From NCBI GenBank assembly GCA_903842985.1, contig CAIMOB010000014.1, positions 14,897 to 78,896 on the forward strand: a stretch of DNA of 64,000 bases, read 5' to 3'. The notes under the pieces are model-generated. The model had not been told where the DNA came from. It ran no database searches and saw nothing but the letters and a program-made list of their open reading frames with translations. Positions within the stretch are counted from its first letter, which is position 1; every line of letters starts with the position of its first letter. Source of the stretch: an uncultured archaeon. Its GTDB lineage: Archaea > Nanobdellota > Nanobdellia > Woesearchaeales > CAIVOO01. Made by a program: the position numbers and the translations under genes. This document shows positions 1,446 through 46,999 of the stretch, in pieces.

Positions 1446-1580
1446 TTTATCCCTCCGGCATAAGCGAGCCTTAACCAGCTTATCCTGCATATAACGAGAA
1501 AGGAGGTGGTTTATAAAGGTATCTCTTGCAACCCAATATTTCAAAAAAATTTATAAAGTCTGTTTGCCACAGAGAGTAAA

Positions 1581-1976
1581 ATGATGTACATCCGAGGCGG
1601 ATTGTCAGCAAAGGACATAAGATTTATCCACGGCAAAATGGATTCTGAAGAGCTAAATGAATACGTGGCTGAGTTGACTTTAAAGATGAAAGAGAATGAG
1701 GAGCAGTTTAGAAAATACTTTGAGAATTTAAAGAAACATGTGCATGAATTGGATGAAGAAGCCCGTCAGCAAAGGTACAGGCACGGCGGACTGAGAAGAT
1801 CTGATTTCGTCCTGGACGGAGTCCCAGCTGAAAAGCAAGATCCGATTTTCAAAAGTCCGGAAGATGTCCGCAGGGTACACGACGCAATTGCAAAGGCATG
1901 CGAGCCTGAATTTGAGAAGTTTGACGCAGCAAGAAGAGCTTCATGGGCAGCTTCAATTGACCGAATTCTGGACTGA
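1581..1976 (+). CDS. hypothetical protein
   Basis: A 131-aa ORF with charged, coding-like composition. No family recognised. Confidence 0.35.
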   Translation: MMYIRGGLSAKDIRFIHGKMDSEELNEYVAELTLKMKENEEQFRKYFENLKKHVHELDEEARQQRYRHGGLRRSDFVLDGVPAEKQDPIFKSPEDVRRVHDAIAKACEPEFEKFDAARRASWAASIDRILD

Positions 1977-2015
1977 ATTTCTTACATTTTTCTTCGACAT
2001 CAGTGACGAAAAACT

Positions 2016-2378
2016 TCAGCGAAGCGAGTCCCTCAGGCTCTTGACTGTAACATTTGTTGTGGACATCAGGTAGTTAAGATACTTCTCAATGCCTTCGTCA
2101 GAAACAAACGCAGCCATTCTCTCGCCGGCAAATACCTTTTTTGCCCTGTCATATATTTTAAATGCAGCTGCATACTTGGGATCATTATTGTCATTATTCA
2201 AAAGAATAATCATGTCAGCAATTTCCCTGTTCAGCAGGCGCTGCAGCGGGCTGTAGTCAGCCTTCAGCGCCTCCTTTAACAGCCTGCAGCCCTTCTTCTC
2301 CCCCAGAGTGTAAAAGAAAAACAAATCCCTGACTAATTCCTCTGAATATTTCCTGCCACCCATTTTTTTGTGTAACAA
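2016..2378 (-). CDS. hypothetical protein
   Basis: A 120-aa ORF convergent with the previous ORF. No motif recognised. Confidence 0.4.
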   Translation of the reverse strand: MLHKKMGGRKYSEELVRDLFFFYTLGEKKGCRLLKEALKADYSPLQRLLNREIADMIILLNNDNNDPKYAAAFKIYDRAKKVFAGERMAAFVSDEGIEKYLNYLMSTTNVTVKSLRDSLR

Positions 2379-2408
2379 TAATGTATATAAATATGTTATC
2401 CCTCAGAA

Positions 2409-3806
2409 ATGGCCATGGGGGAGCAGTATCTTGGAAATATGCAGTTCACGGAGCGTGTTAAAGAAGAGGCAAACATAGTTGAATTAATAGGGCAGTATGT
2501 CAAGCTGAAAAAATCAGGCAAAAGCTATGTCGGGCTTTGCCCTTTCCACGATGAGAAAACACCTTCTTTTCACGTGACTGAAAATCCCAAATTATACTAC
2601 TGCTTCGGCTGCGGCGAAGGCGGAGATGTCATTGGTTTTTTCATGAAGAAAGAAGGCATGATATTTCCCGAAGCAAGGGATTATGTTGCAAGGGAATCTG
2701 GGATACCGGTTCCAGTTTTCAAAAGGCAATACAAGGGCACTGTCTTAAACACCAGGGATGCGCTTGGAATTGCGCAGGAATTTTTTTCAAGAAACATAAA
2801 CAATCATGAAGCAGCAGCGTACTGCATGGAAAGGGAGCTTGACGAGGCAACAATAAAGCAGAGGGGCATTGGCTATGCTCTAAACAACTGGCATGCGTTG
2901 AAAAATAACCTTCTGGGCATTGGATTCAAGCTCGAAGACTTGGTAAGCGCAGGGCTTGTTGGGCAGAAGCGCGACTCGCCAGCAGAGTCAAGGAACCCTG
3001 ATGACTACTATGATTTTTTCAGGAACAGGCTCATGTTCCCGCTGAGGGACAGGTTCGGCCTGCTTGTCGGGTTTGCAGGAAGGGCGATTTCAAGCGAAGA
3101 CGAGATAAAATACCTTAACACAGTTTCGCAGACGAGATTCGGGAAGACATTCTACAACAAGAGCGAAATTTTGTTCGGGCTGTCTGAAGCAAGAAATGCA
3201 ATAAGGGAGACAAAGAAAGTGCTCTACACAGAGGGCTACATTGATGAAGTATCTGCCCGCAAAATCGGGATGGAAAATGTTGTTGCTTCTGGCGGAGTGG
3301 CATTTACGCAGAAGCAGGCAAAGATACTTCGCGATGTCGGCGCTGAAGAAATTATTTTCATCATGGACATGGATGAGGCAGGAATAAGAGCTGCAAAAAA
3401 GGCAGTGCAGGTTGCCTATGCCGTGGGGTTGACCCCGCTTCTGGCGTCGATAAGCAATAAAGATATTCAAAGCAATGAAGAGCTCAGAGGATATGGAAAA
3501 ATAGACCTTGATGTATTGGCAAGGCATTATCGCGATCCTGATATGGTAATGGCTTCGCTGACAATAGGCGACGTTATTGAATTTGTACTGAAAACTTCTG
3601 AAAAACCCAAGGAGCCTGAAGCGCAGAATAAATTACTGGAAGAGATAGTGAGCTACTTTTATCTTTTGCCTGCAGGAAGAAAAATGCTGTGGATAAACAA
3701 GGCAGCAAAAGAGCTTGGGATTCCCGAGGATATTGTGCAGGTAAAATATTTTGAAAGGCTGAAGCAGTCTGTTGTTCCAGAGAGAGGATGTTGCAAGGCG
3801 CGCTGA
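2409..3806 (+). CDS. dnaG: bacterial-type DNA primase DnaG (CHC2 zinc-binding domain plus TOPRIM RNA-polymerase domain)
   Basis: CPFHDEKTPSFHV...YYCFGCGEGGDVIGF is the classic DnaG CHC2 zinc finger. The TOPRIM signatures are YTEGYIDEVS (E-G) and FIMDMDEAG (DxD). The archaeal exosome-associated DnaG lacks this zinc finger. Confidence 0.8.
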   Translation: MAMGEQYLGNMQFTERVKEEANIVELIGQYVKLKKSGKSYVGLCPFHDEKTPSFHVTENPKLYYCFGCGEGGDVIGFFMKKEGMIFPEARDYVARESGIPVPVFKRQYKGTVLNTRDALGIAQEFFSRNINNHEAAAYCMERELDEATIKQRGIGYALNNWHALKNNLLGIGFKLEDLVSAGLVGQKRDSPAESRNPDDYYDFFRNRLMFPLRDRFGLLVGFAGRAISSEDEIKYLNTVSQTRFGKTFYNKSEILFGLSEARNAIRETKKVLYTEGYIDEVSARKIGMENVVASGGVAFTQKQAKILRDVGAEEIIFIMDMDEAGIRAAKKAVQVAYAVGLTPLLASISNKDIQSNEELRGYGKIDLDVLARHYRDPDMVMASLTIGDVIEFVLKTSEKPKEPEAQNKLLEEIVSYFYLLPAGRKMLWINKAAKELGIPEDIVQVKYFERLKQSVVPERGCCKAR

Positions 3807-4263
3807 GTTAAAAATTCTTGCAGAGAATTACATTATCGGCCTCCTGACGCACCCAGTGGAGTATATCAAGCCATTTTTTAGGATAATACCGCCGGAAAGC
3901 TCGTTTTTTTCGCCGGAGCTCAGGGAGGTCTATAAAATAATAATTGAGGAGACACCGCAGGAGTTGCCGCTGAAATCACCGTCAAACCACCAGACAGATT
4001 TTGTGGAGGATGATAAAATCGAGAAAGCGTTCAACCATCTGCGAATGAGGTACAAGGAGAAGAAGCTCAAGGCATTTCCAGCAAACCTGATACGCCGGCT
4101 GATGAATGGGGCGCCGAATGATTTTGAGAAGACAGCAACAACCCTGTTCCATATAGCAAAAGAAGACAGGAGAGCCAGGAAGCTGGAGGAGCTCATAAGG
4201 GCCAGCAGGGAATCAGACACAGAAACAGCTGAAAAAATCTCAACAGAGCTGCTGGAGATGTAG
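3772..4263 (+). CDS. hypothetical protein; possibly the detached C-terminal (helicase-interaction) domain of DnaG
   Basis: A 163-aa ORF that starts 35 nt before the primase stop in another reading frame. Combined with the primase it totals about 628 aa, close to full-length DnaG. A frameshift or split gene is plausible. Confidence 0.4.
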   Translation: MFQREDVARRAELKILAENYIIGLLTHPVEYIKPFFRIIPPESSFFSPELREVYKIIIEETPQELPLKSPSNHQTDFVEDDKIEKAFNHLRMRYKEKKLKAFPANLIRRLMNGAPNDFEKTATTLFHIAKEDRRARKLEELIRASRESDTETAEKISTELLEM

Positions 4264-4264
4264 C

Positions 4265-6313
4265 ATGGCTGAAGAATTTGTTTCTATGATTCGCAATGGC
4301 AAAGAAAGTAAATGCAAAATCCAGTCCCTCGCAACAGTTAAAAAGAGGGTTGAAAAATTTTTAGCTGACAATGAGCTTGGCCCCAAAGACCCGATTAACA
4401 AGGTGCAGCTCAGAAGCGCAGACCAAAATTTGTTTTATCAGCTATGCCTTCACAGTTATCTTCTTTCAGGCAAGATGAACGCAACTCCTGCACTGCTTAA
4501 AATGGGATTCAGCACGCCTGTGAAAAGCGATTATGAAATGTCCACTGTCCAGGTTGAAGAATACATCAGGCAGGCGATACCGAAGGAGACTGCTGAGGAA
4601 ATATACAGCGGACACAGGAGGGTGTACCTGAAAAAGCATTTTAGGAACTGCGGCAAGCTGGTGTGGCAGGCATACCGCGGCTGCACAGCCAACGGCAGGT
4701 CGGATTTCAGGAGAGGGAGGCTGGTGGAAATAATAAACAGTCTGTATCCTGACCTTCAGGAAAAATACAACGGCAAAAAGCTCTATCCGCTTCTTCGGGA
4801 AAGAAGGCTTACAGAAAGCTACCTGCATGACAATCTAAGAAAACTGTATTTTGACGAAAAAAGCATTTCAAATTCAGGGCTGCGCGCCCAGCCAAACGGA
4901 AGAAAAATGGTTTATGCAATTGGATGCTCCTCTGCAGACAGGCAGATGGAGCTTTTCGAGAATGAGGCTAATTTCATGAAAAAGGCAGCCAGGCTGATGG
5001 GCATAAAGGGGCTGTCGCACAGCGACCTGTGCATGGATGGACAGGATGCAACGACCTGCATCGGAAACATAGCAGAAGGGCAGCTTTTGTTTTTGCTGGC
5101 TGCTGTGATGAAGTACGACCCCAAGTGCAGGGCAATGGGCAGTGAGTTCAGGGAAATATTCGGCTCAGAGATACACGAAATCTTTTCAAAAAATGAGATA
5201 GACAGGGTGGCGCTTCCAGGCAGCCCAGACGAGTTCTTTTCTGACGGCAGGCTGATATCAGCCAAAGGGGACCTTCTTCTGGAGGTGAAGGTGCAGCAGT
5301 CGCTTGACCGCCGCGGAGTTCCGAATGTCATAAAGAAATACGAAAAACAGAATTACTGGGCAGACGGCGGGAAAATAGACAGGAAAATCATGCTCATCTA
5401 CACGCCTGACGAGCGTCTCAGGAACAACCTGGCGAACAGCGAGCAGTTCACACTGATTGCAGGAGAGCAATTTTCAGAGTTTTATTCCAAAGCAATAGAA
5501 TTAATCAGGAAAAATGAGCCTGGGTTCTTCTGCTCAGCAAAAATCCCAGTCAGCTCGGACACGCTGCTTCATATTAATGACATTGTCTGCGGAAAGCCCC
5601 ATCTGCTGCTGGAGAGAAACAAAAGATGGATGAGGCAGTGGGCAGCTAAAATGCTCAGCGAGAACTACGAATGCCTGCTCAGCGGAGAGAGGGTTCCCGG
5701 CAGGCAGAAGTTTGACTATGAATACATTGCGCCGTTTGAGGATTTCAGAAATTTTTACGGAAAAAAAGCAGACTTCACACTGGAAGAAGACTGCCTGATT
5801 CTGGACCTGGAAACAGCGGGGCTTAACAAGGCAATTGAGCCGATAATCCTGATAGGAATGGCTTACCAGCAGGATGGGAAAATGCAGACGCATGTGCTTT
5901 TTTCCAGGAACCCGAGCGAGGAAAAAAAGGCGCTGCAGGACTTCAAGCGCATAAGCAGCAGGCATAAAAAAGTTGTGACTTTTAACGGCGAGCCCTTTGA
6001 CATTCCATATCTGAGAAAAAGGATGATTGTCAACAGGGTGCTGCCGGATTTGAACATTGAGAACATAGACCACTATCCTAATTTCAGGAAATACGCCCAG
6101 TCTGAGCAGTTCCCAAAGTCAGGGCTGAAGATTTTTGAAAGAAACCAAATCCATAAAAAAAGGGAGAAGGATGTTGATGGAAGCGAGATTCCTGAGATAT
6201 ACTACAACTTCATCTACGGCAGGGAGGATTATCTTATTCCATCAATGATTTCCCACAACCAGCATGACTTGATAACGCTTGCGATGATGCATAAGCTGCA
6301 GGGGAAATACTGA
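4265..6313 (+). CDS. large nuclease-like protein: central PD-(D/E)xK-like motif plus C-terminal RNase H-like (YprB/DnaQ-like) 3'-5' exonuclease domain
   Basis: The C-terminus carries ILDLETAGL ... VTFNGEPFDIPYL ... H..D, a DEDD/RNase-H-like exonuclease signature. Mid-protein, GDLLLEVKVQ...LIYTPDE resembles the D...E-x-K motif of restriction-endonuclease-fold proteins. No Walker A motif is visible. The start codon directly follows the previous stop. Confidence 0.6.
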   Translation: MAEEFVSMIRNGKESKCKIQSLATVKKRVEKFLADNELGPKDPINKVQLRSADQNLFYQLCLHSYLLSGKMNATPALLKMGFSTPVKSDYEMSTVQVEEYIRQAIPKETAEEIYSGHRRVYLKKHFRNCGKLVWQAYRGCTANGRSDFRRGRLVEIINSLYPDLQEKYNGKKLYPLLRERRLTESYLHDNLRKLYFDEKSISNSGLRAQPNGRKMVYAIGCSSADRQMELFENEANFMKKAARLMGIKGLSHSDLCMDGQDATTCIGNIAEGQLLFLLAAVMKYDPKCRAMGSEFREIFGSEIHEIFSKNEIDRVALPGSPDEFFSDGRLISAKGDLLLEVKVQQSLDRRGVPNVIKKYEKQNYWADGGKIDRKIMLIYTPDERLRNNLANSEQFTLIAGEQFSEFYSKAIELIRKNEPGFFCSAKIPVSSDTLLHINDIVCGKPHLLLERNKRWMRQWAAKMLSENYECLLSGERVPGRQKFDYEYIAPFEDFRNFYGKKADFTLEEDCLILDLETAGLNKAIEPIILIGMAYQQDGKMQTHVLFSRNPSEEKKALQDFKRISSRHKKVVTFNGEPFDIPYLRKRMIVNRVLPDLNIENIDHYPNFRKYAQSEQFPKSGLKIFERNQIHKKREKDVDGSEIPEIYYNFIYGREDYLIPSMISHNQHDLITLAMMHKLQGKY

Positions 6314-6387
6314 CTGAGAATTGCCTGAACACAGCAGTTTTCGTCGGGGCTGGTGACAAAACCTGCAGGAAATATCTCCGTTGACAT

Positions 6388-7269
6388 GTGCATATTAAAT
6401 CCACAAATCTTATATACCACTTCTGCACGAAACCGGCCATGGTTAAAGCACTAATCGATCAGCTTGAAAAAATTTTAAATAATAAAGGCTTGCCCAAAAA
6501 AGAGTATTTTGAGCTTATATTTGACACGCTTCTAAGCATTTACCTAAAGAAGAATTACCTTCCTTACGCAGACCAGGCTAAATCAAAAAAAGAATCAGGA
6601 ACAGAAGACGGGAATTTATTCTCAGCAATTCTTGCTTATCTGCCGGACATAAGGGACCCCAGGTTCATAGATGACAAAATTTATGACAAGATGCCTGTTT
6701 TTGAAAGGCTTGAAGACATTGACTTTGACAAGCATATTGAACGATTGTCATTAAAATCCCACGACGGCGCAATTATTTTTGATGATAATTATATCTCAGA
6801 CAGGTACATTGTTTTCAAAAATTTGTCGAATACTGCAATAAAGGTTATCCAGGACAGGGTTGGAGAAACAGAAGCGAAAAAAATCAGGCTTTTGTACGAC
6901 ATTTTGCCTTATTTTGCTCCAAAAACATTTTCAGACCCAAGCGGAAGAGGGGAAATCCAGGCTGGTGCAAAAAGCGAAACAGCTTTTGAACTGCCTCTTG
7001 CAATAGATGGTGCAGTTAGTTTTATGCTGAAGAGCACTGTCTTCAAAAACAATCTGGGAAAAGTCATAATGTGCGACCATTTTGGCTTAAGTTTGGAGGG
7101 CTATCTTGACAATATCCCAAATCTGGATGAAATTTACTATTTGGACAAGGAAAAAAATATTGTAATAATAAAAGAGCATTATCAGTATGATCCAGAGCTA
7201 AGAATAGTTGTGCCATTCAAAAAAGAGATAATAAAACCAAGTTATTTGAATCTGCCTAAGGCTGCTTAA
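6388..7269 (+). CDS. hypothetical protein
   Basis: A 293-aa ORF. The real start may be the internal MVKALIDQLEK. No family recognised. Confidence 0.45.
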   Translation: MHIKSTNLIYHFCTKPAMVKALIDQLEKILNNKGLPKKEYFELIFDTLLSIYLKKNYLPYADQAKSKKESGTEDGNLFSAILAYLPDIRDPRFIDDKIYDKMPVFERLEDIDFDKHIERLSLKSHDGAIIFDDNYISDRYIVFKNLSNTAIKVIQDRVGETEAKKIRLLYDILPYFAPKTFSDPSGRGEIQAGAKSETAFELPLAIDGAVSFMLKSTVFKNNLGKVIMCDHFGLSLEGYLDNIPNLDEIYYLDKEKNIVIIKEHYQYDPELRIVVPFKKEIIKPSYLNLPKAA

Positions 7270-7277
7270 CTTAAAAA

Positions 7278-7688
7278 TTATTTAATTCTGGAAATATCCC
7301 CGTCAATAACAACCGGCTTTACAGCTTCAATCTCAGTTCTGTAATTCATGTCAGGGATTGGGTTCCAGAGGAATATCTTCTGGTTCAGGACATGGGCAAA
7401 TCCGATTTCCATCAGCGTGTTTCCGCCAATATAATTCTTGACATTGTTCTTGTCCAGATTCATGACAAGAAGCGCATCAGCGCCCTGCATTGCTTTCCAG
7501 AAAACGCGGATTGCGTCCCTGTTGTATTTTTGGTAAAGCTTGATTTTCTCCAGTTCCTCTTCTGTTTTGCCTACCAGCGCCTTGTGCAGGTCTGTTACAA
7601 ACGCATCATGGCCCAGCTTTCTCAGCTTGTCGCGTATTTCAAGAATTTTTTCAACAAACTGCATGGAGCCTGCTATTCCGATTCTCAT
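7278..7688 (-). CDS. nucleoside 2-deoxyribosyltransferase-like / DNPH1 (Rcl)-family protein
   Basis: MRIGIAGSMQF... and ...GGNTLMEIGFAHVLNQKIFLW match the Rossmann-like layout of the deoxyribosyltransferase/Rcl family (conserved E in T-x-x-E-x-G). I trimmed the start to the internal Met (MRIGIAG). Confidence 0.5.
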   Translation of the reverse strand: MRIGIAGSMQFVEKILEIRDKLRKLGHDAFVTDLHKALVGKTEEELEKIKLYQKYNRDAIRVFWKAMQGADALLVMNLDKNNVKNYIGGNTLMEIGFAHVLNQKIFLWNPIPDMNYRTEIEAVKPVVIDGDISRIK

Positions 7689-7689
7689 T

Positions 7690-8037
7690 TTACCTGAACA
7701 CAACCTGCCCTTTTGTGAATTTTGAGACATCTGATTTTGTTATGTTTACAAAAGGACCGACTTCCCTGTTTATCTTGTTGTACAATCCCAGCCCTTTCTG
7801 CGTCAGCCTCAGCTGCCTGCTGCTGTAATTGAGATATTTCTTGTTTTCCAAATCCTCAAGGTTCTTGTACAGTGCCCTGATTGATTTGTCGCAGATTTTC
7901 GCCTTCTTCGCCATTTCAATGAAGCTTATTTTCGAGACAGACATTGAAAGCGGAGCATCAGAAAATCTTTTGTTGCACTCCTGCAGGTAGTGGCACAGGG
8001 CATAGAGAACTATTTTGTGCTTTTTGCTGACCCCCAT
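7690..8037 (-). CDS. putative winged-helix DNA-binding protein
   Basis: A small 115-aa protein with an HTH-like segment (SVSKISFIEMAKKAKICDKSIRALYKNLEDLENKKYL). It sits divergent from an intergenic region rich in palindromes. Confidence 0.45.
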   Translation of the reverse strand: MGVSKKHKIVLYALCHYLQECNKRFSDAPLSMSVSKISFIEMAKKAKICDKSIRALYKNLEDLENKKYLNYSSRQLRLTQKGLGLYNKINREVGPFVNITKSDVSKFTKGQVVFR

Positions 8038-8228
8038 TTTACATAGTTAATTATTTGGATTTTTTAAAGGTTTCCCTAGAACACGTTTCCAGCTTTGCTG
8101 GAAACTAGTCAATTATGACACTTGTAAAATAGTCTCTATCCGATCAAACGCTTTCTCTTCTAGAGAAAGGGTTTGTTTTAAAGGTTTCTTTGGAAATATT
8201 TATATACAAAGACGCCCTAAATATATGT

Positions 8229-8522
8229 ATGAAAAGGTTAATTCTGCTGGTTCTTGTGGTTTCGCTAGTCCTGACAGGCTGCGCGAATACAAGCAATAAT
8301 ATAACTGGCGCAGCAGTTGGCGCGCCATGCGAATGCTCTGATTCAGATGGATTGAATCCAAACACAGCAGGAATAACAATCATTAATTCTGATGGCAAGA
8401 CAATCACCAGGCATGACCAATGCATTGCAAATTTTGTCACAGAATATTACTGCGAAGACTGCCAGCTCCTGAGCAAGAACTTCAGGTGCGAGAACGGATG
8501 CAATGAAGGCGCTTGCCAGTAA
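8229..8522 (+). CDS. small Cys-rich secreted lipoprotein (lipobox LTGC)
   Basis: MKRLILLVLVVSLVLTGC signal peptide with a lipobox, followed by a Cys-rich domain. TATA-like TTTATATA at 8199-8206 sits about 25 bp upstream, suggesting a leaderless transcript. The ORF-track start at 8190 is probably too early. Confidence 0.55.
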   Translation: MKRLILLVLVVSLVLTGCANTSNNITGAAVGAPCECSDSDGLNPNTAGITIINSDGKTITRHDQCIANFVTEYYCEDCQLLSKNFRCENGCNEGACQ

Positions 8523-8525
8523 TTA

Positions 8526-9284
8526 CTATTTTCTCATCTGCACAATGCCATCATATCTTTTATAAAACACAATTACAAGAACAGCTGCAAGCGTTCTTAT
8601 AAAACTAAATTTAAACAGTCTCCTTATTAAAAAATTAAGCCTGGGGATTTTATTGGGTTTATCATACAATGCAAAATTTATGTATTCTGCGCGGGGGTAT
8701 ACTCTAAATTCCCTAAAACCTGCCTTCTTTGCAACTTTAACAATCTTTTTAGGAGGCATATCCTTCTCAGTAACACCAAACCTTTTAACAGCATTAACTG
8801 CGTTTATAGTCTTTGAATGGCCCGCGCCAGGTTCAGATACAATGCAAATCCCATTAGGTTTAAGCGAGTTATAAGCTGTTCTTAATGCCTTTTCTTCATT
8901 TACTGCATGATGCAAAGAATCTATAAACACAACACAGTCAAAGTTTGAATAAGAATTAATATTTTTTTCATAATCCCATTGAACAAATCTCAGATTTTTA
9001 AGTTTCTCCTGTGTTTTTTTTGCGGCAGCATGCTTAATTGATTCAGATGATATATCCACCCCAACAACATCATAGCCTCTCTTTGCAAAAAATATGCTTG
9101 TCCACCCTGTTCCGCAGCCCATATCTAATACTTTTGCAGGAGGATTCGGCAATAGAGACATAATTGCGCCCATCTCTGCCATTAATGCTCCGCATGCATC
9201 ATCGGAAAACGGCTTGTTTATTGAGTGCATGACTCCGCATTTTCCAATATTTTTCAGATAATCTATTTCTCCCTGCTTTGTCAT
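8526..9284 (-). CDS. class I SAM-dependent methyltransferase
   Basis: Motif I VLDMGCGTGWTSIFFAKRGYDVVGVDIS. I trimmed the start to Met55 (MTKQGEIDYL) because the longer ORF-track version would read through the tRNA gene. Confidence 0.7.
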   Translation of the reverse strand: MTKQGEIDYLKNIGKCGVMHSINKPFSDDACGALMAEMGAIMSLLPNPPAKVLDMGCGTGWTSIFFAKRGYDVVGVDISSESIKHAAAKKTQEKLKNLRFVQWDYEKNINSYSNFDCVVFIDSLHHAVNEEKALRTAYNSLKPNGICIVSEPGAGHSKTINAVNAVKRFGVTEKDMPPKKIVKVAKKAGFREFRVYPRAEYINFALYDKPNKIPRLNFLIRRLFKFSFIRTLAAVLVIVFYKRYDGIVQMRK

Positions 9285-9329
9285 TTTAAAATACTTCTGC
9301 CCCCAAAATGTTATATGATTTAAGTATGA

Positions 9330-9403
9330 TAGCCCCGGGCGGATTCGAACCGCCGTCCCGAGATCCAAAGTCTCGGATGATTGACCGGCTACACTACGGG
9401 GCT
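9330..9403 (-). tRNA. tRNA-Gln (anticodon UUG)
   Basis: I folded it by hand: AGCCCCG acceptor stem with an A1-U72 pair typical of archaeal tRNA-Gln, anticodon stem CGAGA/UCUCG with loop CUUUGGA (U33, anticodon UUG), T-arm GGCGG-TTCGAAT-CCGCC, discriminator A. CCA is not encoded. Confidence 0.8.
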
Positions 9404-9472: not shown

Positions 9473-10321
9473 GTGTATATGTCTCATAAACTTATTCAGA
9501 GGAATTTCATAGTTATCTGGATCATTGTATTGCTTTCTCTGGCGCTGGTTTTCACGCTGATTCTTACAGGCTGCCAAAAAACAAAGGTAATAAGCGCAAA
9601 AGAAATCCCAAAGGAAACTGAGAAGCCTGCTGCGCCGGCGCAGCCGAATACAACAGTAAGCACTAAAAACGCAAGCACTGCAAAAAATGTTTCTGCAGAA
9701 GCGAAGCCAGCGGTGACTGCCACAGCTGATTCGTCATCAAAAAAAGACCTGAATCTTGCAGGTGTTTTAGCAGATACTATTTATCCAAAATCCAATGAAA
9801 TTTTTGAAGTGACACTCACTGTTGAAAATGCCGGGCTTGAAAAAATAGATTCGTTCGAATATCTGGTCAATATAATGAAAGACGGCGTGCTTCAAAAATT
9901 TGACAGGGGGGAGAGGAATGAAGGGCTGGTTGCTGGCGGAAAAGTAAAGCTAAGAAGCGAATTTTCACTTTCATCAGCTGGCAAATATACAATTGAAGCC
10001 AGTGTAGACCCCAGCAATGCTGTGAAGGAGTTCGATGAGTCGAACAACGGCAAAACAACTACAATTACTATTGTTGCGCCTTCTGCAGAAACAACGCAGG
10101 AAAATGAAGCGCCTGCACCTGCGCCGTCTGGAACATGCACAGACACTGACAACGGAAAGATTTACACATTGAAGGGAAAGTGCACAGACAGCGGGGCATA
10201 CAGCGCAGGCTTCAATGACTTTTGCATTTCAGCCACAAGGCTGGTTGAAATGTACTGCAAGTCAGGCGAGTGCGTTCAGGAGGAACATGCCTGCAGCTGC
10301 AGTGAAGGTAAATGTAGTTAA
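9473..10321 (+). CDS. secreted lipoprotein with CARDB-like domain and C-terminal Cys-rich module
   Basis: Signal peptide ending LILTGC (lipobox), then an S/T/A/P-rich linker. A CARDB-like segment follows (TLTVENAGLEKIDSFEY...ESNNGKTTTITI). The C-terminal Cys-rich module is paralogous to the one at 8229-8522. TATA box about 30 bp upstream. Confidence 0.6.
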   Translation: MYMSHKLIQRNFIVIWIIVLLSLALVFTLILTGCQKTKVISAKEIPKETEKPAAPAQPNTTVSTKNASTAKNVSAEAKPAVTATADSSSKKDLNLAGVLADTIYPKSNEIFEVTLTVENAGLEKIDSFEYLVNIMKDGVLQKFDRGERNEGLVAGGKVKLRSEFSLSSAGKYTIEASVDPSNAVKEFDESNNGKTTTITIVAPSAETTQENEAPAPAPSGTCTDTDNGKIYTLKGKCTDSGAYSAGFNDFCISATRLVEMYCKSGECVQEEHACSCSEGKCS

Positions 10322-11858: not shown

Positions 11859-12197
11859 ATGAACTGGATTGAATTATTTGATAAATTAGTTATAGGAATT
11901 GCAACAGAATTGAAATTAAAGTTTTTTAAAACTAGTAGTGGTTATTTGTTATCTCATGAAAATGTTTTTATTGGAGGGGTTTCTTATATTATCGGTAGAA
12001 ACGAAAAATTAAGGATATTGGTTAATCCTGCTCCTGCCAGATTTAAAGGAATGCCTATAGAAAGTATTCCTAAAGTTTCTATATTCTTAGGAAGACCAAT
12101 TGATTTAGGTGATTATACAATGGAAGAGTTACAAGGAAAAAATTCAAAGGCAAAAATAGCCATAATTTCAGCCATAATAAAGCAAATAGGAAAATGA
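11859..12197 (+). CDS. hypothetical protein (AT-rich island)
   Basis: A 112-aa ORF inside the low-GC segment. Confidence 0.35.
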   Translation: MNWIELFDKLVIGIATELKLKFFKTSSGYLLSHENVFIGGVSYIIGRNEKLRILVNPAPARFKGMPIESIPKVSIFLGRPIDLGDYTMEELQGKNSKAKIAIISAIIKQIGK

Positions 12198-12236
12198 TTG
12201 TCTTTCTATCCTCAGCAGATTCGCTAACTTATAGAA

Positions 12237-12818
12237 ATGTTTATAAATTTCATTATACTATTAAATTTAATGAAACGTGAATTAGTATTAGAAAAAGAGG
12301 ATTATGAAGTTTTAAATCCCATTTTAGATATTCAGGAAAAATTCAAAACAGATGGCTGGAAGCCCGAATATGCCCAAGTAATTAAACAATGTGTTTCTAA
12401 TCTTAATAAGATACTTGAAGAAGTAAATAAAGAAGTAAAATACAGAAATGAAAATAAAATGATGATAGGCAGTTCTTTTATAGAATTTTATACTTCGGTA
12501 TATCAAGTATTCAATCTTTGGGAAGATATTCAAACTAGGGATGAAAGTTTTTTAGAATTATTAATTAAGGAAGCACCCGAACTTGTAGAAGTTATCATTC
12601 CTAAAGCAAACAATCTTTGGGATGAAATAAAATTAAACTGTAAGACTATAACTAGTGATCCCATATGGCCAAAGGGTCCAAACTTTATAAGATCACCAAA
12701 AGAACTTGCTAATGGAACTTATGAAGGGATTCCAATTGATGAAATAATAAAGGATGCAGTAGATATTGGTGAATACTTAGATGGATTTGCAAAAGAACAT
12801 TCTGATGTATTGAAATAA
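12237..12818 (+). CDS. hypothetical protein (AT-rich island)
   Basis: A 193-aa acidic ORF inside the low-GC segment. Confidence 0.4.
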   Translation: MFINFIILLNLMKRELVLEKEDYEVLNPILDIQEKFKTDGWKPEYAQVIKQCVSNLNKILEEVNKEVKYRNENKMMIGSSFIEFYTSVYQVFNLWEDIQTRDESFLELLIKEAPELVEVIIPKANNLWDEIKLNCKTITSDPIWPKGPNFIRSPKELANGTYEGIPIDEIIKDAVDIGEYLDGFAKEHSDVLK

Positions 12819-22256: not shown

Positions 22257-25200
22257 TTATTTCCTCTCCTCAAATGGATTAACAAACTTGATTTTCTTGA
22301 ACTCCTTTTCATAAATCTCAGGCATCTTCTCCATTGTGAGTATTCTTTTCTTCCATACCTTGTGTGTGTAATGCGTGAGCGCGAATGTGATGTCCTTGCA
22401 TAGCTCCATAGGCAGATTGTATGTACCTTGTATCAGCTCAGCCTTCCACTCAAATTTTTTCTCAAGCTCGAATGCAACAAGATTTTTCAGCTCTTTGTAT
22501 TTTTCGCAGTTCTCCCTTAGAGTGTAAATCTTCCTGTATTCCCTTATCTTGTTCTCGCTGATTAATTTTTCAATTGTTTTGCTGTCTGCTACCAATACTT
22601 TTTTTGGCCAGAAAAGTATGAATAATGAAATCAACAAAGTAATTAATTTGATAATGATTAATGTGATGAAAATTATTTTAATTGTTTCGCTTCCGCCAGA
22701 ATTTGGAGCTGGGCTCTCTTTTTCTGGCGCTTTCTCAGGAGATTTTTCCTCTGTTTTTGCTTCAGCTAATTTTTTCTCCTCTTTTGCAGGTGTTCTTATG
22801 CCAGTTTCGTTTTCCTTTGGTCTTGTTATCAGTGGCGCAACGCCTCCGCCTTTCTTTTCTGTTGTTCCGCCGCTTGGCGCAGGCGTGCTGCTTGGCACAG
22901 CAACTGTTAAATTGTAAATCAAAGAAGCGCCTGTATTTCCAAGCTCATCTGTGCAGTTTACGCTCCAGTTGTACTTTCCATTGGTCAGTGTTCTTGTGAA
23001 GCTCTGCGCCATGCCTTTTGTTATTGTTGTGCCTGTTAAGATTATTGCTTTATTTATTATTAACGAGCAGTTCGAGATGCTGCTTGCATCGCTTACATTG
23101 TAATTGAATGTTGTCGATGCAGTTGTCCTTTTTGTGTTGTTTGCAGGCGACTCAAGCGAAACATCCGGCGCAGTTGTGTCCCTTATTGTTATGTTTATTA
23201 TTATTGAGCGCCTGTTATTCAGCGTGTCATTGACAGAGATGTTCAGCCATTTTGTTCCTATTGGCACTGATGTGCTCTCTTCTATTACGCCCGATGTTTT
23301 GTTTATCTTGAAGTAACCAGTGTCATTAATCCAGTACTGGCTTATGCCACTTGGGTCTGTCGCATTTACTTCATAGTAAAATATATCTCCTGCCTCAAGC
23401 GTCTTGTTTTTAGGCGTCTCTACCCATACGGGAGGGGTTGTGTCAACAATAAAGAATATCTGCTCTGAAGCGATGTTTTTTGAAGTGTCATTTGCATAGA
23501 TGGTTATGTTATTCAATCCTTCCTGACCTAAGAATGTTATGTTCTGGCACGAAGGAAGGTCCAGCCTGCTTCCTGTCACATTCACATACCAGCACTGCGA
23601 GACAGCTGTCTCGTCGCTGACAGTGTAGTTGAGAGTTATTACATTTGAATTGTGAAGCGAGTTGTTCTGCGGCAGAGAGACATCCAGAATAGGCGCTGTT
23701 GCATCAAGTGTGAAGACGATTGGGGTATCTGTATTTGCAGCGATGCTCTGCTTTGGGTTAACTGAGATGTTGTATACCTTATTATAATTTGCCGGAGTGA
23801 AATTCAGTTTTGCATTCACGAAACCATAGATATTAGTGTAGCCATACCATATGCTTTTGCTCCCGTTTGTCACATTCACCAGCCTGTTCACAGCAAAGCT
23901 TCCGTTTGTGTAGTTTACAATGACAGGATAGTACCTTAATAATTTGCCAGTGTACACCCTTACATTGCTTGGCATGTCAACATAGCCATAAATTTTTGGT
24001 GTATTGTTATATACTCTTACAGAGTTTGTGATGTTTGATTTTGGAAGCGTAAAATTAACTACCGAATTTCCCATAATATATGTAAGGTCATTAAAAATAC
24101 AATTCTTGAATTCGTTCTTTGAATAATTCAGTGTGTACATTCTGTTTTTGAAAGTAGAATTCTCAACGAAGTTGATGGAAGAATCTTTGAAATATGCATA
24201 ATAGAGTGCAGTAGAATTAATTATGGTGTTTACTGAATAACCCCCAAAATGCAATTGATCATATGTTTTAATATTTTTGATTAGGTGATTCTTGTTTCCT
24301 GACATATGCAGCTCAGACCCATTCAACAGGCTGTTTGTCAAGTTTAGATTGCCATAGACCCAAATTTTAAAATAGAATAATATATTGCTTCTGATAACAG
24401 AATCTTTTATATTTAGGCTGGCATTTTCACTGACATATATATTTTGATTGCCCGGCGCCTGAATTAGTGTGAATGTTGTGTTTTCAAGCGTCAAGGTGCT
24501 TGTATTTTCCAAGATCAGCGTCTGGTTTTTGAAATATAATATAGTATTGTTGCATATAACATCTGCATTCTCAATTGTCCAATTCGTGCCTGGCGGAGGC
24601 AGCCCGCAGCCAGGAAGAACATAAATATCGTCAGAAGTTTTGAAATATTCATAATTCGTTTCATTGCAGCTTATATTGTAATAGTAAGGTCCTGCGATTG
24701 TGAAGTTTCTTCTGAACTCAAACAATTTTGTTGATGCATTGTAATTCATCTGATTATTTAGGTCAGAGAAGCTTATGTTGCAGCTTCCTGCTGTTACTGG
24801 CGCTCCTGAAGTTCTGTTTGAGTAGTTTGCATAGAATGTTATTTCTTCGTGCGTTGTTCTGTTCATCCAGCCGCCTTCTGGGTCGTTTTCGTCAAATATT
24901 TTTAATTCTGAATTCGTTCCTGCGCTGTAATTCGAGAAACCGGCAACTTCAAATGTGAAATTCTCGCTATCATATCCTCTGCTTTTGCAGTTGGCGCAGA
25001 CAGCCCCGTTCTTTAGGGCAATAGGCGTTTTCTTGAAACTTAGGCTGTAGATTGTCAGATTCGCAGGCTTGTTAAATTCAGAATATTTGCTTGCGTTCAT
25101 ATAAACTGAATTAGCTCCAATCCTGAACGCCTCCGAAGCCCTTGTCAGGTCAGTTGTGCTTCCGAACTTTACCTTGCCATTCTCGGATTTCACTGAATCT

Positions 25201-26957: not shown

Positions 26958-26958
26958 T

Positions 26959-27228
26959 TTATCCTACATAATCTATTTTGTGCGTTTCTCCTAACAGCTC
27001 AACTGAGTACTTGTCAAACTTGACATTCCAATGGTTAAAAAATTCCTCTATGTCCTGTGATTTACTATCCAAGACAATGAAACAGCCAGGAACAAGAAAA
27101 CGGCCTCTATGTTCGCCAACAACTCCTTCATGGCCATTCCTTCCTTTAAGGGCCTGTACAAATTTGACTTTTGTAAGATTATCTAGCTGAGAAATATTGT
27201 AAACATATATTACCTCTTTTTTGTGCAT
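26959..27228 (-). CDS. hypothetical protein (translationally coupled upstream of the S8 protease gene)
   Basis: An 89-aa ORF whose stop lies 2 nt before the protease start. Confidence 0.4.
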   Translation of the reverse strand: MHKKEVIYVYNISQLDNLTKVKFVQALKGRNGHEGVVGEHRGRFLVPGCFIVLDSKSQDIEEFFNHWNVKFDKYSVELLGETHKIDYVG

Positions 27229-27328
27229 ATCAGTTAACCTATTAACTTAAAACTAATATTTAAATCTTTCGGTTAATAAGTTAACAAATTAAAAAGAATT
27301 TGATGTTTTTTGTTAATGAATTAACAAA

Positions 27329-30300: not shown

Positions 30301-31369
30301 TGAATCTTAAGGTATTTCCTGAGATTGTGTTATGAGAAGCATCAACAAGCTCGATGCCAGCAGTTGTGCTGTTTGTTATGATATTATTGGTTAATATATT
30401 GCTGTTGGAATTTTCAAGATAGATTCCTTTGCTGTACTTCTTAATATTGCAGTTCTTTATTGTGTTGCCATTGTAGCCGTTGCTGTAAATTCCATACCCA
30501 GCGCCATTGCCGACAATTACTGAATTATTACAGTCCAACACAATATTGTTTGCTCCAATCTTCAGTATTCCGTCGCCATTCGCGTCGTTTGTGTTGTATG
30601 TTCCTGCGCAGAGAACTGCGCTTACATTAACAACTAAGTCATCAACAACATGCGCGCACGGCTTCCCGCTTTCCTGTGAAGTGTAATTCGTGAAATGCTG
30701 GACAGTGAATGTCAAATCCCCGTTTGTATAGCTGATAATATTGCAGTCAGTGCATTTGCTGTCGTCTTGTAAGATAACAGGATTGCTGAAAGACAAGCCA
30801 TACAATGTTAATGTTGCCGGCTTGTTCAGCTCCGGCAGATTATTTGAGTCAACTGAAATAAAATTATTGGATATCTGGACATAAGCATCAAGGTTTGTAT
30901 TTGAAATATCAACAGACTGCCCGCTGAAATCGATTTTTCCACTGTTCGGGACTTCAAGCACCAAATCATTGACAGAAGTTAAATCGCTTTCCTGCGAAAA
31001 ATCAGTTGTGTCGCCTGAAAACTCTGTCGCGTCAGGAATGTTTGAGCTTGAACCTGAATTGCTTGAACCGCCTGAACTGCCTCCTGAAGAGGTTTTCTTG
31101 CTTGTACTTGAGCCTGCGAGAATATTATACGTAAACTTTGTTTGGTTTTGGGTTACAGCTGTCTGATTTTTGCTTGGCTCTTGAACTTTATTCTGTGAAC
31201 TTTCATTTACAACCGCAGGAGTCTCATTCGCTTCTGCTGCCTTCAATTCCGAAGAAGCTGTTCTGTCATAAATCACATTCCCTGTAATCACACCTTTGCT
31301 GCAGCCGTAGAGAAATATAGTTAAGACTGCCAGAATCAATACGCCCCATTTTTTATTTTTCTGGTTCAT
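27329..31369 (-). CDS. giant secreted lipoprotein with right-handed parallel beta-helix (NosD/PbH1-type) repeats
   Basis: Signal peptide ending LYGC (lipobox). Repeated N-x-I-x-x-N/beta-helix segments follow (NNIITNSTTAGIELVDASHNTISGNTLRFNTKRGINLV and many more). C-terminal Cys-rich end. Confidence 0.7.
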   Translation of the reverse strand: MNQKNKKWGVLILAVLTIFLYGCSKGVITGNVIYDRTASSELKAAEANETPAVVNESSQNKVQEPSKNQTAVTQNQTKFTYNILAGSSTSKKTSSGGSSGGSSNSGSSSNIPDATEFSGDTTDFSQESDLTSVNDLVLEVPNSGKIDFSGQSVDISNTNLDAYVQISNNFISVDSNNLPELNKPATLTLYGLSFSNPVILQDDSKCTDCNIISYTNGDLTFTVQHFTNYTSQESGKPCAHVVDDLVVNVSAVLCAGTYNTNDANGDGILKIGANNIVLDCNNSVIVGNGAGYGIYSNGYNGNTIKNCNIKKYSKGIYLENSNSNILTNNIITNSTTAGIELVDASHNTISGNTLRFNTKRGINLVPSEILDDATSCKYNVIKNNIIESQQYGITLQNGNDYNNVTNNIVNYNSNAGIQITGNNNNNAVHNYVVGNNLTGNGGFDVTESKRGFYSGIYVGSAGLNYIVNNNVLNNLGPGIALFNSSSNEIRSNNVKNNAFEGVLLMNDIVPSRGIGNKNNIVYKNNVTHNSATAILLGYNSIGNSITKNLLNFGGYRANSSNNVYANNTYMNAPPVILTGDSEAWSTYNANIHINVSDPDNGTVNISVQNLPAGAVFINKTIIWMPNSTQYGDYNITLNANDGIENVSKSIILHAHQSCHVNSECYDGSNSTVDVCNFHSLDWNGTYPSCSNWIPNVYGRVFDTDTGLPIAGENISFYNNTVWNAENMTGNYSALQPKPIPDAVTDANGAYYGFSTASTKYVNIVIEGTDEKDFDHKMSTQPTADKLIILPETGNVRVLFEKAEAGLKSDLRLAKPYSAMLVANTSTGKSVVLNNGQKINALTEILLYIRVHCLQGYCPTKMDYDHYSNSSYAIVDRLDYDTWRIYFEDLDVKKSIMPDFDYNDAVILVELYNYTWPPQNTTPYTDDCDHDGIKNWNDFDDDWCDTGSHNSDVDQNSTYYKNLNVDGHIIYSGRYEGNNNYTCNEYVNFNMFGINNGYNDTTVTFIVENHTAISGVESAPIPCAVNGKTVYCGNQSKSSENLFLPNDNKQHNKNYKVYIPCNWGPGRYEIHAYDNLRWGKMHKLGDFFIIRDTTPPNFGQMIYGYIGGYLTEYKGMEGPYKFYYSALDPPQPGTLAAQMVYIEGRTDASINVTLDKDINTDSSGDGIKDNDVDYSGPGSDMGEINIRYNVSGHYVTKATATDKAGNKAVRYENVTVYMTENEADVIADPIYRDYFQFLPTDWGDPWYDVNTTLIIVPIAINAVWDRYDDLNTQIGDEYMTPGNNISTKAQVDALNYNVDYCQETSGGTYVKTIPLSTAAEFNDTIKSYLRHLKCVCHDSWLVGGPAC

Positions 31370-44621: not shown

Positions 44622-44637
44622 AAAACACCTCTTAATT

Positions 44638-45081: not shown

Positions 45082-45087
45082 CTTAAA

Positions 45088-46868: not shown

Positions 46869-46999
46869 CCAAAACACCACCCAATCTGCACTGGAATTTT
46901 TAATCCAATTATTTAAGCATTTATATCCTGCAGAATAACTATTTTAAAATAGTAAAACATAAATACAGAGTTAAAATAAGATTTTATTGGGGTGTTTAG

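What the first reader, a model, noticed from the sequence alone, without database searches (positions are those of the whole stretch)
1545..9403. Bacterial-type DnaG primase module with novel nuclease partners abutting the tRNA-Gln 3' end: possible integrated element or replicon
An archaeon normally primes with PriSL, and its own DnaG homolog lacks a zinc finger. Here a full bacterial-style DnaG (CHC2 zinc finger plus TOPRIM) is followed by a possible detached C-terminal domain. Next come a 682-aa protein with a PD-(D/E)xK-like motif and an RNase-H-like 3'-5' exonuclease domain, an unknown 293-aa protein, and a deoxyribosyltransferase/Rcl-like gene. That family is common in phage nucleotide-salvage modules. 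An HTH gene, two lipoproteins and a methyltransferase complete the block. It ends exactly at the 3' end of tRNA-Gln, the classic integration position. No integrase is seen, so it could be a degraded provirus or plasmid, or a previously undescribed primase-nuclease replication or defence module.
Basis: partly seen in the sequence, partly recalled or inferred. Interest (0 to 1): 0.65.

Follow-up and report, generated by a model that had tools for sequence, protein, structure and literature searches.

The report
Bacterial-type primase paired with dual nuclease
An archaeon of the tiny-celled DPANN type carries a complete bacterial-style DNA primase coupled to a previously undescribed double nuclease and a small partner gene. 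This trio recurs in distant relatives but is missing at this spot in a close one, so it is a conserved accessory DNA-handling module and not a virus or plasmid inserted at the tRNA gene.

Summary
DnaG (2409-3806) is a true bacterial-type primase, scoring above NCBIfam's curated cut-off. orf163 (3772-4263) is its detached C-terminal domain, split at an (AG)4 tract. The 682-aa protein has an invariant PD-(D/E)xK site and a PolB/MrfB-like DEDDh 3'-5' exonuclease.

The tRNA-integration reading fails. There is no copy of the tRNA-Gln 3' end, no integrase and no compositional anomaly. Three genes lying between the module and the tRNA are conserved in a close relative.

What is there instead is a conserved three-gene module: a small divergent ORF (2016-2363), DnaG with a lineage-specific C-terminal domain, and the dual nuclease. 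DnaG sits immediately upstream of the nuclease in 11 of 12 independent archaeal contexts, several of them labelled Woesearchaeota. The twelfth keeps only the C-terminal-domain protein. Flanking genes are different housekeeping genes each time.

A close relative (87-90% nt identity) lacks 1521-7270 at the same locus, so the module is accessory.

Function is inferred: a primase-nuclease complex for DNA repair or repriming, with anti-invader defence as the main rival. I found no published description.

The parts
2016..2363 (-). Small divergently transcribed ORF (orf120 family, about 115 aa from ATG 2363). It is the third conserved component of the module. Motifs: (D)LFFFY near the N-terminus and Y..YL near the C-terminus.
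   Evidence: jackhmmer from this ORF against 908 six-frame ORFs of all loci retrieves only the ORFs lying divergently just upstream of DnaG in L005, L022, L008/9, L001, L021, L002 and L023 (E 5e-39 to 2e-13), with no decoys. No Pfam or PDB match.
2364..2408 (.). 45-bp divergent intergenic region with a palindromic TATA-like box (TATATAAATA, 2384-2393) about 25 nt from both start codons. Inferred shared promoter for near-leaderless transcripts.
   Evidence: Read directly from the sequence. Promoter function is inferred and was not tested.
2409..3806 (+). Bacterial-type DnaG primase core. Zinc-binding domain about 2442-2714 (C44, H47, C65, C68). DNAG_N about 2799-3194. Toprim about 3225-3464, with EGYxD and DxD motifs.
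   Evidence: Pfam. TIGR01391 314.1 bits against cut-off 283.6. Catalytic motifs aligned with bacterial and archaeal DnaGs.
3779..3786 (+). (AG)4 tract where the reading frame changes (+1) between the DnaG core and its C-terminal domain. This could be a real split, a frameshift mutation or an assembly error.
   Evidence: Sequence. The two parts are fused in L001, L003, L005, L008, L010, L021-L023.
3772..4263 (+). orf163: the detached, lineage-specific C-terminal domain of DnaG. Proposed adaptor to the nuclease.
   Evidence: jackhmmer retrieves only the C-terminal parts of DnaGs in all module loci, plus the stand-alone 216-aa protein upstream of the nuclease in L006/L007. No DnaB_bind Pfam hit. 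hhalign against bacterial C-termini gives probability 1-4%.
4265..6313 (+). p682 dual nuclease. N-terminal beta-hairpin plus helical region (4265-5029). PD-(D/E)xK endonuclease-like core (5030-5464; E271, D327, E340, K342). Helical linker (5465-5719). DEDDh 3'-5' exonuclease (5720-6310; D514, E516, D579, H664, D668).
1521..7270 (.). Islet A: a segment present in the window but absent at the orthologous locus of close relative L025. It contains orf131, the three-gene module and p293.
   Evidence: blastn of window against L025. Junction sequences show no flanking repeats.
1581..1976 (+). orf131: an unknown coiled-coil-like ORF inside islet A. Not part of the conserved module.
   Evidence: No homologue in any related locus. 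Only sub-threshold Pfam hits.
6388..7269 (+). p293: an ORFan inside islet A, with lower GC (0.365). Not part of the conserved module.
   Evidence: No Pfam, NCBIfam, PHROG, PADLOC, PDB, phage or related-locus match.
7278..8037 (-). Neighbour genes conserved in the close relative, so they belong to the local chromosomal backbone and not to the module. HTH-like 115 aa (7690-8037) followed by an NDT-like 136 aa (7278-7688).
   Evidence: 91-95% aa identity to L025 2549-3308. The family assignments are weak.
8524..9328 (-). Islet B: a class I SAM methyltransferase (8526-9284) that abuts the tRNA-Gln 3' end. In L025 it is replaced by three small unrelated ORFs.
9330..9403 (-). tRNA-Gln(TTG), conserved in place in L025.

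Best explanation
Window 2016-6313 is a conserved, chromosomally encoded, accessory three-gene module of Woesearchaeota-type DPANN archaea. It consists of a small divergent gene, a bacterial-type DnaG primase, and a tightly coupled dual nuclease.

Shown:
- The primase keeps its zinc finger and Toprim catalytic residues.
- Its C-terminal domain has diverged beyond recognition from the bacterial helicase-binding domain. That domain always accompanies the nuclease, even where the primase core is missing.
- Both nuclease active sites are invariant.
- Primase and nuclease co-evolve.
- Flanking genes are ordinary archaeal housekeeping genes that differ from genome to genome.
- A congener lacks the module at this locus.

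Inferred mechanism:
- The three proteins form a complex in which the DnaG C-terminal domain docks onto the helical N-terminus of the nuclease.
- The PD-(D/E)xK domain cuts a damaged or branched DNA structure.
- The DEDDh domain resects the 3' end, as MrfB does in mitomycin repair.
- DnaG then lays an RNA primer on the exposed single strand so that a polymerase can refill the gap. This would be a repair or replication-restart pathway working alongside the fused PriS-PriL primase that the literature reports for this clade.

The gene was probably acquired once from bacteria and then inherited, lost and reshuffled within the lineage. It is not an element integrated at tRNA-Gln.

My confidence is about 0.85 that the module is real and conserved, about 0.85 that it is not a tRNA-integrated mobile element, and about 0.35 that its role is repair or repriming.
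For: - Domain and active-site assignments.
- DnaG lies immediately upstream of a p682 homologue, with start and stop overlapping or at most 20 nt apart, in the window, L001, L002, L003, L005, the P0154 contig, L008, L010, L021, L022 and L023. These span 21-37% p682 identity. L006/L007 keeps only a C-terminal-domain-like protein upstream.
- The small divergent ORF family is conserved.
- Pairwise identities of DnaG and p682 correlate (r = 0.81, Mantel p = 2e-4).
- Flanks are L15e, PCNA, ProRS, AspRS, RNase J, and S15 with RecJ.
- Source labels say Candidatus Woesearchaeota.
- In a CPR bacterium, dnaG is followed by rpoD, not by a nuclease.
- No att repeat, no integrase and normal codon usage. 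No tRNA near the module elsewhere.
- Close relative L025 lacks 1521-7270. No p682 orthologue from that organism is in the protein collection.
- DPANN cluster 2 has a fused PriS-PriL (PMC7414124).
- There is precedent for a bacterial-derived PolB inherited within Woese- and Pacearchaeota (PMC7544198).
- MrfB is a 3'-5' exonuclease in DNA repair (10.1101/2025.09.15.676423).
Against: - No direct evidence of a physical complex or of any activity.
- The repair role rests on analogy with MrfB and on domain logic.
- Absence from a congener, and presence in varied contexts, are equally typical of defence systems.
- In L006 the nuclease sits near PIN, Bro-N and Fic genes.
- The window copy of DnaG is split by a frameshift, so it might be decaying here.
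- The NJ tree does not resolve the archaeal DnaGs as a single clade, and some are no closer to each other than to bacterial DnaGs. A single acquisition is therefore not proven.
- Whether this genome has PriS-PriL, an archaeal DnaG or a DnaB could not be checked.
- The literature search was limited to open-access text.
Confidence: 0.55

Rival explanations
1. The module is an anti-virus or anti-plasmid defence system. The primase-like protein senses or primes on invading single-stranded or replicating DNA, and the dual nuclease destroys it. The small divergent gene acts as regulator or inhibitor.
Against: No PADLOC system-level match, only domain-level hits. Neighbours in most loci are housekeeping genes, not defence genes. 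These two congeners differ by at least six indel or replacement islets in 23 kb, so variability here is not specific to this module. The primase catalytic residues are maintained, which a pure sensor would not need.
Confidence: 0.25
2. One reading: the 1.5-9.4 kb block is a mobile element (a degraded provirus or plasmid) integrated at the 3' end of tRNA-Gln.
For: The block abuts the tRNA 3' end. Parts of it (1521-7270 and 8524-9328) are variable relative to a close relative. Several ORFs have no known function.
Against: No copy of the tRNA 3' half in 64 kb. No integrase, capsid or replication-initiator gene. Composition and codon usage are typical. Genes 7271-8523, between the module and the tRNA, are conserved in the relative. 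There are no repeats at the islet A junctions. No viral or phage relatives of p682 or p293 were found beyond the generic exonuclease domain. In other genomes the module never lies near a tRNA.
Confidence: 0.05
3. The bacterial-type DnaG has become the essential replicative primase of this lineage, replacing or sharing work with PriS-PriL. The nuclease would be a replisome accessory, for example for primer processing.
For: The gene is intact, with catalytic residues kept across deep divergence. It sits next to replication-linked genes in some genomes: RecJ/GAN with S15 here, and PCNA in L008. Broad surveys list 'DnaG' as retained in all DPANN phyla (PMC8407392).
Against: A congener lacks the module at the locus, and no orthologue from it is in the protein collection, which is hard to reconcile with an essential role. 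The window copy is frameshifted. L006 has lost the primase core. The literature reports a fused PriS-PriL in all DPANN cluster 2 genomes (PMC7414124). The 'DnaG' of the surveys is probably the archaeal exosome-associated type.
Confidence: 0.07
4. Artefact: bacterial (CPR) DNA mis-assembled or mis-binned into an archaeal contig.
For: The best DnaG database hits are CPR and Firmicutes primases at about 40% identity.
Against: The gene is flanked on both sides, on one contig, by archaeal genes with the same codon usage. The same gene pair recurs in at least 11 independent assemblies, including a 1.56-Mb scaffold. CPR dnaG has a different neighbour.
Confidence: 0.02

Closest known systems
Bacterial replicative primase DnaG (TIGR01391 / COG0358)
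   Same: It has the CHC2 zinc-binding domain, the DNAG_N and Toprim RNA-polymerase core with the EGYxD and DxD acidic residues, and the KYLNS motif. It scores above the curated equivalog-domain cut-off.
   Different: The host is an archaeon. The C-terminal domain is not recognisable as the DnaB-binding domain. The downstream partner is a dual nuclease instead of rpoD. Most archaeal copies share an insertion after KYLNS. The gene is dispensable in a congener.
MrfB (YprB) 3'-5' DEDDh exonuclease of the Bacillus subtilis MrfAB mitomycin-repair pair (PDB 8un9; Pfam PF13482)
   Same: The C-terminal 190 residues share the fold and the DxE / NGxxFD / HNxxD catalytic motifs.
   Different: p682 adds about 485 N-terminal residues that include a PD-(D/E)xK nuclease. 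Its partner is a primase, not the MrfA/YprA helicase. No helicase is in the neighbourhood.
Exonuclease domain of family B DNA polymerases
   Different: There is no polymerase (palm, fingers, thumb) domain. It is a stand-alone exonuclease fused to an endonuclease-fold domain.
Archaeal DnaG (exosome-associated Toprim protein)
   Same: It has a Toprim core and occurs in archaea.
   Different: The archaeal type lacks the CHC2 zinc finger and the DNAG_N architecture and acts in RNA metabolism (PMC3914693). The window protein is of the bacterial type by every test.
Bacterial-derived PolB group B7 of Woesearchaeota and Pacearchaeota (Kazlauskas et al. 2020, PMC7544198)
   Same: It is a precedent for a bacterial DNA-synthesis gene acquired by this DPANN clade and then inherited within it.
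   Different: It is a different enzyme, and no linkage to the present module was seen.
tRNA-targeting integrative elements of archaea
   Same: The block lies next to a tRNA 3' end, and part of it is variably present.
   Different: There is no integrase and no att duplication. The module is separated from the tRNA by conserved backbone genes.

Membership tests
Bacterial DnaG primase (TIGR01391) | N-terminal CHC2 zinc-binding domain | tested here: met
   PF01807 E 2.2e-34. C44, H47, C65 and C68 are present.
Bacterial DnaG primase (TIGR01391) | RNA-polymerase core (DNAG_N plus Toprim) with catalytic Glu and DxD | tested here: met
   PF08275 2.6e-27 and PF13155 7e-16. The TEGYID and MDMDEAG motifs align with bacterial DnaGs.
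Bacterial DnaG primase (TIGR01391) | Score above the curated family cut-off | tested here: met
   314.1 bits against a cut-off of 283.6.
Bacterial DnaG primase (TIGR01391) | C-terminal DnaB-helicase-binding domain | tested here: inconclusive
   A C-terminal domain exists (orf163), but it gives no PF10410 or PF08278 hit, hhalign probability 1-4% against bacterial C-termini, and no PDB profile hit. Its fold was not modelled.
Bacterial DnaG primase (TIGR01391) | Works with a DnaB-type replicative helicase; usual dnaG-rpoD context | tested here: not met
   The downstream gene is the dual nuclease in 11 of 12 contexts, while rpoD follows dnaG in the CPR control. No DnaB was found among the annotated ORFs of the 64-kb window. 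The whole genome cannot be tested.
MrfB/YprB-type exonuclease (PF13482) | RNase_H_2 domain above the Pfam threshold, with DEDDh residues | tested here: met
MrfB/YprB-type exonuclease (PF13482) | Operon partner is a MrfA/YprA helicase | tested here: not met
   No helicase is adjacent in any of the 12 contexts. The partner is DnaG.
PD-(D/E)xK nuclease superfamily | E...D...(D/E)xK catalytic motif on an alpha-beta-beta-beta-alpha-beta core | tested here: met
PD-(D/E)xK nuclease superfamily | Metal-dependent DNA cleavage | not testable with these tools
   Needs biochemistry.
tRNA-integrated mobile element | Integrase gene | tested here: not met
   None among the ORFs of 1-20 kb scanned with Pfam, PHROGs and NCBIfam.
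tRNA-integrated mobile element | Direct repeat of the tRNA 3' part (attL/attR) | tested here: not met
   Two 22-nt probes with up to 3 mismatches match only the tRNA itself. The repeat finder found nothing.
tRNA-integrated mobile element | Contiguous foreign segment reaching the tRNA, with atypical composition | tested here: not met
   7271-8523 is conserved in relative L025. Codon-usage z-scores are within about 1.5.
tRNA-integrated mobile element | Variable presence among close relatives | tested here: met
   1521-7270 and 8524-9328 are replaced in L025. At least four further small indel or replacement islets occur in the same 23 kb.
Known anti-phage defence systems (PADLOC-DB 2.0) | Match of the gene set to a described system | tested here: not met
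   Only domain-level hits were found: the DnaG-like parts of the DRT UG29 models, and DEDDh at E 0.008.
Archaeal exosome-associated DnaG | Toprim protein without a zinc finger | tested here: not met
   The window protein has the CHC2 finger and the bacterial architecture.

The most novel reading that the evidence does not exclude
The trio (small protein, bacterial-origin DnaG with a re-purposed C-terminal adaptor, and a PD-(D/E)xK plus DEDDh dual nuclease) is a previously unrecognised kind of primase-nuclease machine specific to DPANN archaea. In it, a bacterial replicative primase has been uncoupled from its helicase and rewired to a nuclease. It would serve either as a repriming and repair pathway or as a new class of genome defence.
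Probability: 0.35. Interest if true: 0.75.

Novelty: new variant of a known kind. Interest (0 to 1): 0.6.

Why it matters
Archaea are textbook users of the eukaryote-like PriS-PriL primase, and their own 'DnaG' is an RNA-exosome subunit without a zinc finger. A complete bacterial-type DnaG kept with intact catalytic residues across deeply divergent Woesearchaeota-type genomes is unexpected. It is always coupled to the same dual nuclease through a C-terminal domain that no longer resembles the helicase-binding domain.

This would be a natural experiment in rewiring a replication enzyme to a new partner. It also adds to the evidence, alongside PolB group B7, that DPANN archaea imported bacterial DNA-metabolism genes. 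Finally, it defines three uncharacterised protein families (the orf120 family, the DnaG C-terminal domain family and the p682 family) with a clear and testable interaction hypothesis. If the module turns out to be a defence system, it would be a new type.

Tried and rejected
- The word-indexed homologue search with p682 found only a 100%-identical fragment. The exhaustive representative search recovered the family.
- Alignment A1 was too divergent for the search for related loci, so the narrower A2 was used.
- The metagenome scan added only duplicates and truncated loci.
- Viral scans found nothing: IMG/VR for the p682 family and p293, phage GenBank by tblastn (only the generic exonuclease domain at 25% identity), and BFVD fold search (best E 1e-3, generic PD-(D/E)xK).
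- The afdb50 fold library was unavailable.
- I tried to show that orf163 is the bacterial helicase-binding domain. Pfam on 9 members, a PDB profile search and hhalign were all negative.
- I looked for clues from domain fusions in longer family members (805-1094 aa). They carry no extra known domain.
- The NJ tree of DnaGs was too long-branched to decide between one and several acquisitions.
- Six searches of the literature library, followed up in several papers, gave no description of a bacterial-type DnaG or of this gene pair in DPANN archaea (searches; papers read). The mentions of 'DnaG' in DPANN surveys do not say which type is meant.
- I looked for origin-recognition-box repeats next to orc1/cdc6 and found nothing convincing.
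Gain versus loss of islet A therefore remains unpolarised.

Full report
**Setting.** The window is archaeal chromosome.
- The block is flanked on the left by a RecJ/GAN-type DHH-CID nuclease (3-986, minus) and ribosomal protein S15P/S13e (990-1544, minus).
- Further along lie Orc1/Cdc6, aIF5B, Trm1, a TYW1-like wyosine enzyme, RNA cyclase, NrdD, PCMT and a Trm-G10-type methyltransferase.
- The only RNA gene is tRNA-Gln(TTG) at 9330-9403 on the minus strand.
- Exact look-ups place the window on a 106,762-nt contig held by NCBI and ENA.

**Checking the observation.**
- DnaG (2409-3806) has the CHC2 zinc ribbon, DNAG_N and Toprim. It passes NCBIfam's curated cut-off for TIGR01391 (314.1 against 283.6 bits).
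- An alignment with bacterial primases shows the zinc ligands, the EGYxD glutamate and the DxD motif in place.
- The 163-aa ORF overlaps the DnaG stop in the +1 frame. The frame change falls in an (AG)4 tract at 3779-3786.
- In relatives the two parts form one 564-717-aa protein. An iterative search from orf163 retrieves only those C-terminal regions.
- So 'detached C-terminal domain' is right. Whether the split is real, a mutation or an assembly error cannot be told without reads.

**The 682-aa protein.**
- The centre carries E271...D327...E340-x-K342.
- In a 49-sequence family alignment D327, K342, D514, E516, D579 and D668 are invariant, and E271, E340 and H664 are at least 90% conserved.
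- A high-confidence AF2 model (pLDDT 90.9) puts the central motif on an alpha-beta-beta-beta-alpha-beta core.
- The N-terminal 250 residues are helical and have no informative match.

**The remaining genes of the block.**
- The 293-aa ORF matches nothing.
- The 'deoxyribosyltransferase' and 'HTH' calls are sub-threshold.
- The methyltransferase is solid.
- Only one of the two lipoproteins lies inside the block.

**Testing integration at the tRNA.**
- Two probes covering the 3' half of tRNA-Gln, with up to three mismatches, match only the tRNA in the 64 kb. The repeat finder shows nothing involving it.
- No integrase or other mobile-element hallmark was found.
- GC, GC3 and a codon-usage likelihood put every block gene within about 1.5 SD of the window's genes. 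The only outliers are two ORFs at 11859-12818, outside the block.

**Relatives of the nuclease.**
- An exhaustive HMMER search of 1.84 billion representatives found 41 proteins at E < 1e-30, and about 60 that share the full architecture.
- Their genomic contexts came from GTDB genomes and from encoding-contig look-ups.
- A bacterial-type DnaG lies immediately upstream, usually with overlapping stop and start, in L001, L002, L003, L005, the P0154 contig, L008/L009, L010, L021, L022 and L023. Nuclease identity to the window protein is 21-37%.
- Where records are named, they are Candidatus Woesearchaeota.
- The exception, L006/L007, has a 216-aa protein upstream that matches only the DnaG C-terminal domain. 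The C-terminal domain, not the primase core, is therefore the constant companion of the nuclease.
- A small ORF transcribed divergently from DnaG is also conserved. jackhmmer from the window's orf120 against 908 six-frame ORFs finds only the ORFs in that position in seven other independent loci, with no decoys.
- DnaG and nuclease identities are correlated across eight loci (r = 0.81, Mantel p = 2e-4).
- Flanking genes differ between genomes and are ordinary archaeal genes: L15e, PCNA, ProRS, AspRS, RNase J.
- No locus has a tRNA nearby.
- In a CPR bacterium whose DnaG is among the best matches, dnaG is followed by rpoD as usual.

**A close relative.**
- Cluster look-ups revealed a congener whose proteins are 88-95% identical. 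Its 78.6-kb contig (L025) is colinear with the window at 87-90% nucleotide identity.
- RecJ-S15, the p150-HTH pair, the lipoprotein, tRNA-Gln and everything from the CARDB lipoprotein onward are in place.
- Window 1521-7270 (orf131, orf120, DnaG, orf163, p682, p293) is replaced by 1.3 kb encoding a NUDIX protein and a 111-aa ORF.
- The methyltransferase next to the tRNA is replaced by three small ORFs.
- The junctions of the large segment carry no repeats.
- The two genomes differ by at least six such indel or replacement islets in 23 kb. Gene flux is generally high here.
- No p682 orthologue from the relative is in the 5.8-billion-cluster collection, although that contig's other proteins are. 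The module is probably absent from that organism, though an incomplete assembly cannot be excluded.
- The module is therefore accessory, and the tRNA-adjacent variable spot is a separate and much smaller one.

**Interpretation.**
- What is shown is a conserved, co-evolving, tightly coupled trio with intact primase and nuclease active sites. It is chromosomal, dispensable and not tRNA-integrated.
- The C-terminal domain of these DnaGs gives no signal for the bacterial DnaB-binding domain.
- From this I infer that it has been re-purposed as the adaptor to the nuclease.
- The literature reports that DPANN cluster 2, which includes Woesearchaeota, has a fused PriS-PriL (PMC7414124). The bacterial-type DnaG is therefore an extra primase.
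- It also reports that this clade inherited a bacterial-derived PolB (PMC7544198), which is a precedent.
- MrfB, the nearest characterised relative of the exonuclease domain, works in DNA repair.
- My preferred mechanism is cut, resect and reprime at damaged or stalled DNA.
- Defence against invading DNA is the serious rival, given the accessory distribution and the nuclease types.
- An essential replicative role is unlikely. An assembly artefact is excluded by recurrence in independent assemblies.

**Novelty.** Searches of the open-access library and follow-up reading of the relevant papers found no description of a bacterial-type DnaG, or of this gene pair, in DPANN archaea. That search is not exhaustive. 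The components belong to known superfamilies, but the combination and the two unannotated families are not described. I therefore rate it a new variant of a known kind, with a moderate chance of being a new type of system.

Noticed in passing
window 11859-12818: Two adjacent ORFs (112 and 193 aa) have much lower GC (0.285; GC3 0.18) and outlying codon usage (z = -2.5 and -1.8). Neither has a Pfam match. They are nevertheless conserved in the close relative L025 (94% and 77% aa identity).
   Followed up: partly
window 8112-8175 (and L025 1254-1317): A 64-nt element contains a near-perfect hairpin (GCTTTCTCT-TCTAGA-GAGAAAGG) followed by a T-rich run. In the relative it lies downstream of the NUDIX operon next to S15. 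In the window it is inverted and sits between the HTH gene and the lipoprotein gene. There it is bracketed by a 20-nt direct repeat (8062-8081 and 8176-8195, TTTTAAAGGTTTC...). It is single-copy in the window. This looks like a trace of a past rearrangement or a small mobile terminator-like element.
   Followed up: partly
window 8524-9328 versus L025 3687-5157: A second small variable islet lies directly at the tRNA-Gln 3' end. The window has a class I methyltransferase there, while the relative has three unrelated small ORFs, one with a lipobox. No integrase or repeat is present in either.
   Followed up: partly
window 57260-58447 (minus) and 58448-59790: An Orc1/Cdc6 initiator gene is followed by about 1.3 kb holding only doubtful ORFs. 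GC drops to 0.31-0.33 at 59500-59800. This may be the replication origin, but no clear ORB-type repeats were found.
   Followed up: partly
window 8190-8522 and 9473-10321: Two secreted proteins have a lipobox (LTGC). Both end in a similar Cys-rich motif (YYCEDC...CENGCNEGAC and MYCKSGEC...CSCSEGKC). The longer one has a CARDB domain. This suggests a shared C-terminal module in surface proteins of this organism.
   Followed up: no
window 22257-31369 (minus): Two giant predicted surface proteins lie back to back: a 1566-aa subtilase (S8 with I9 inhibitor and Ig domains) and a 1346-aa beta-helix/NosD-like protein with a Nup98-type autopeptidase (S59) hit. This is typical of DPANN cell-surface arsenals. 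The S59 hit is unusual.
   Followed up: no
window 42537-48034: A nucleotide-metabolism cluster holds an anaerobic ribonucleotide reductase NrdD with an ATP-cone, a divergent thymidylate-synthase-like ORF (46095-46880), and a fusion of a P-loop kinase with dCMP deaminase (47000-48034).
   Followed up: no
L001 12121-13287, L002 10255-11460, L003 4856-6019: In three of the related genomes a conserved CBS-domain protein of about 390 aa follows the nuclease, directly in L001 and L002. It is absent from the window and from the other loci, so it may be a lineage-specific neighbour or a fourth component in that subclade.
   Followed up: partly
L002 5892-7795: The DnaG of this relative is also split into two ORFs, but at a different place, between the zinc finger and the catalytic core. 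So there are splits in two assemblies at different sites. They may be assembly indels, or a real tendency of this gene to fragment.
   Followed up: no
L025 7500-8688: The close relative carries two T2SSF-like (type IV pilus/archaellum platform) ORFs between pfkB and the low-GC ORFs. The window lacks them. This is another example of the dense gene-content differences between these congeners.
   Followed up: no
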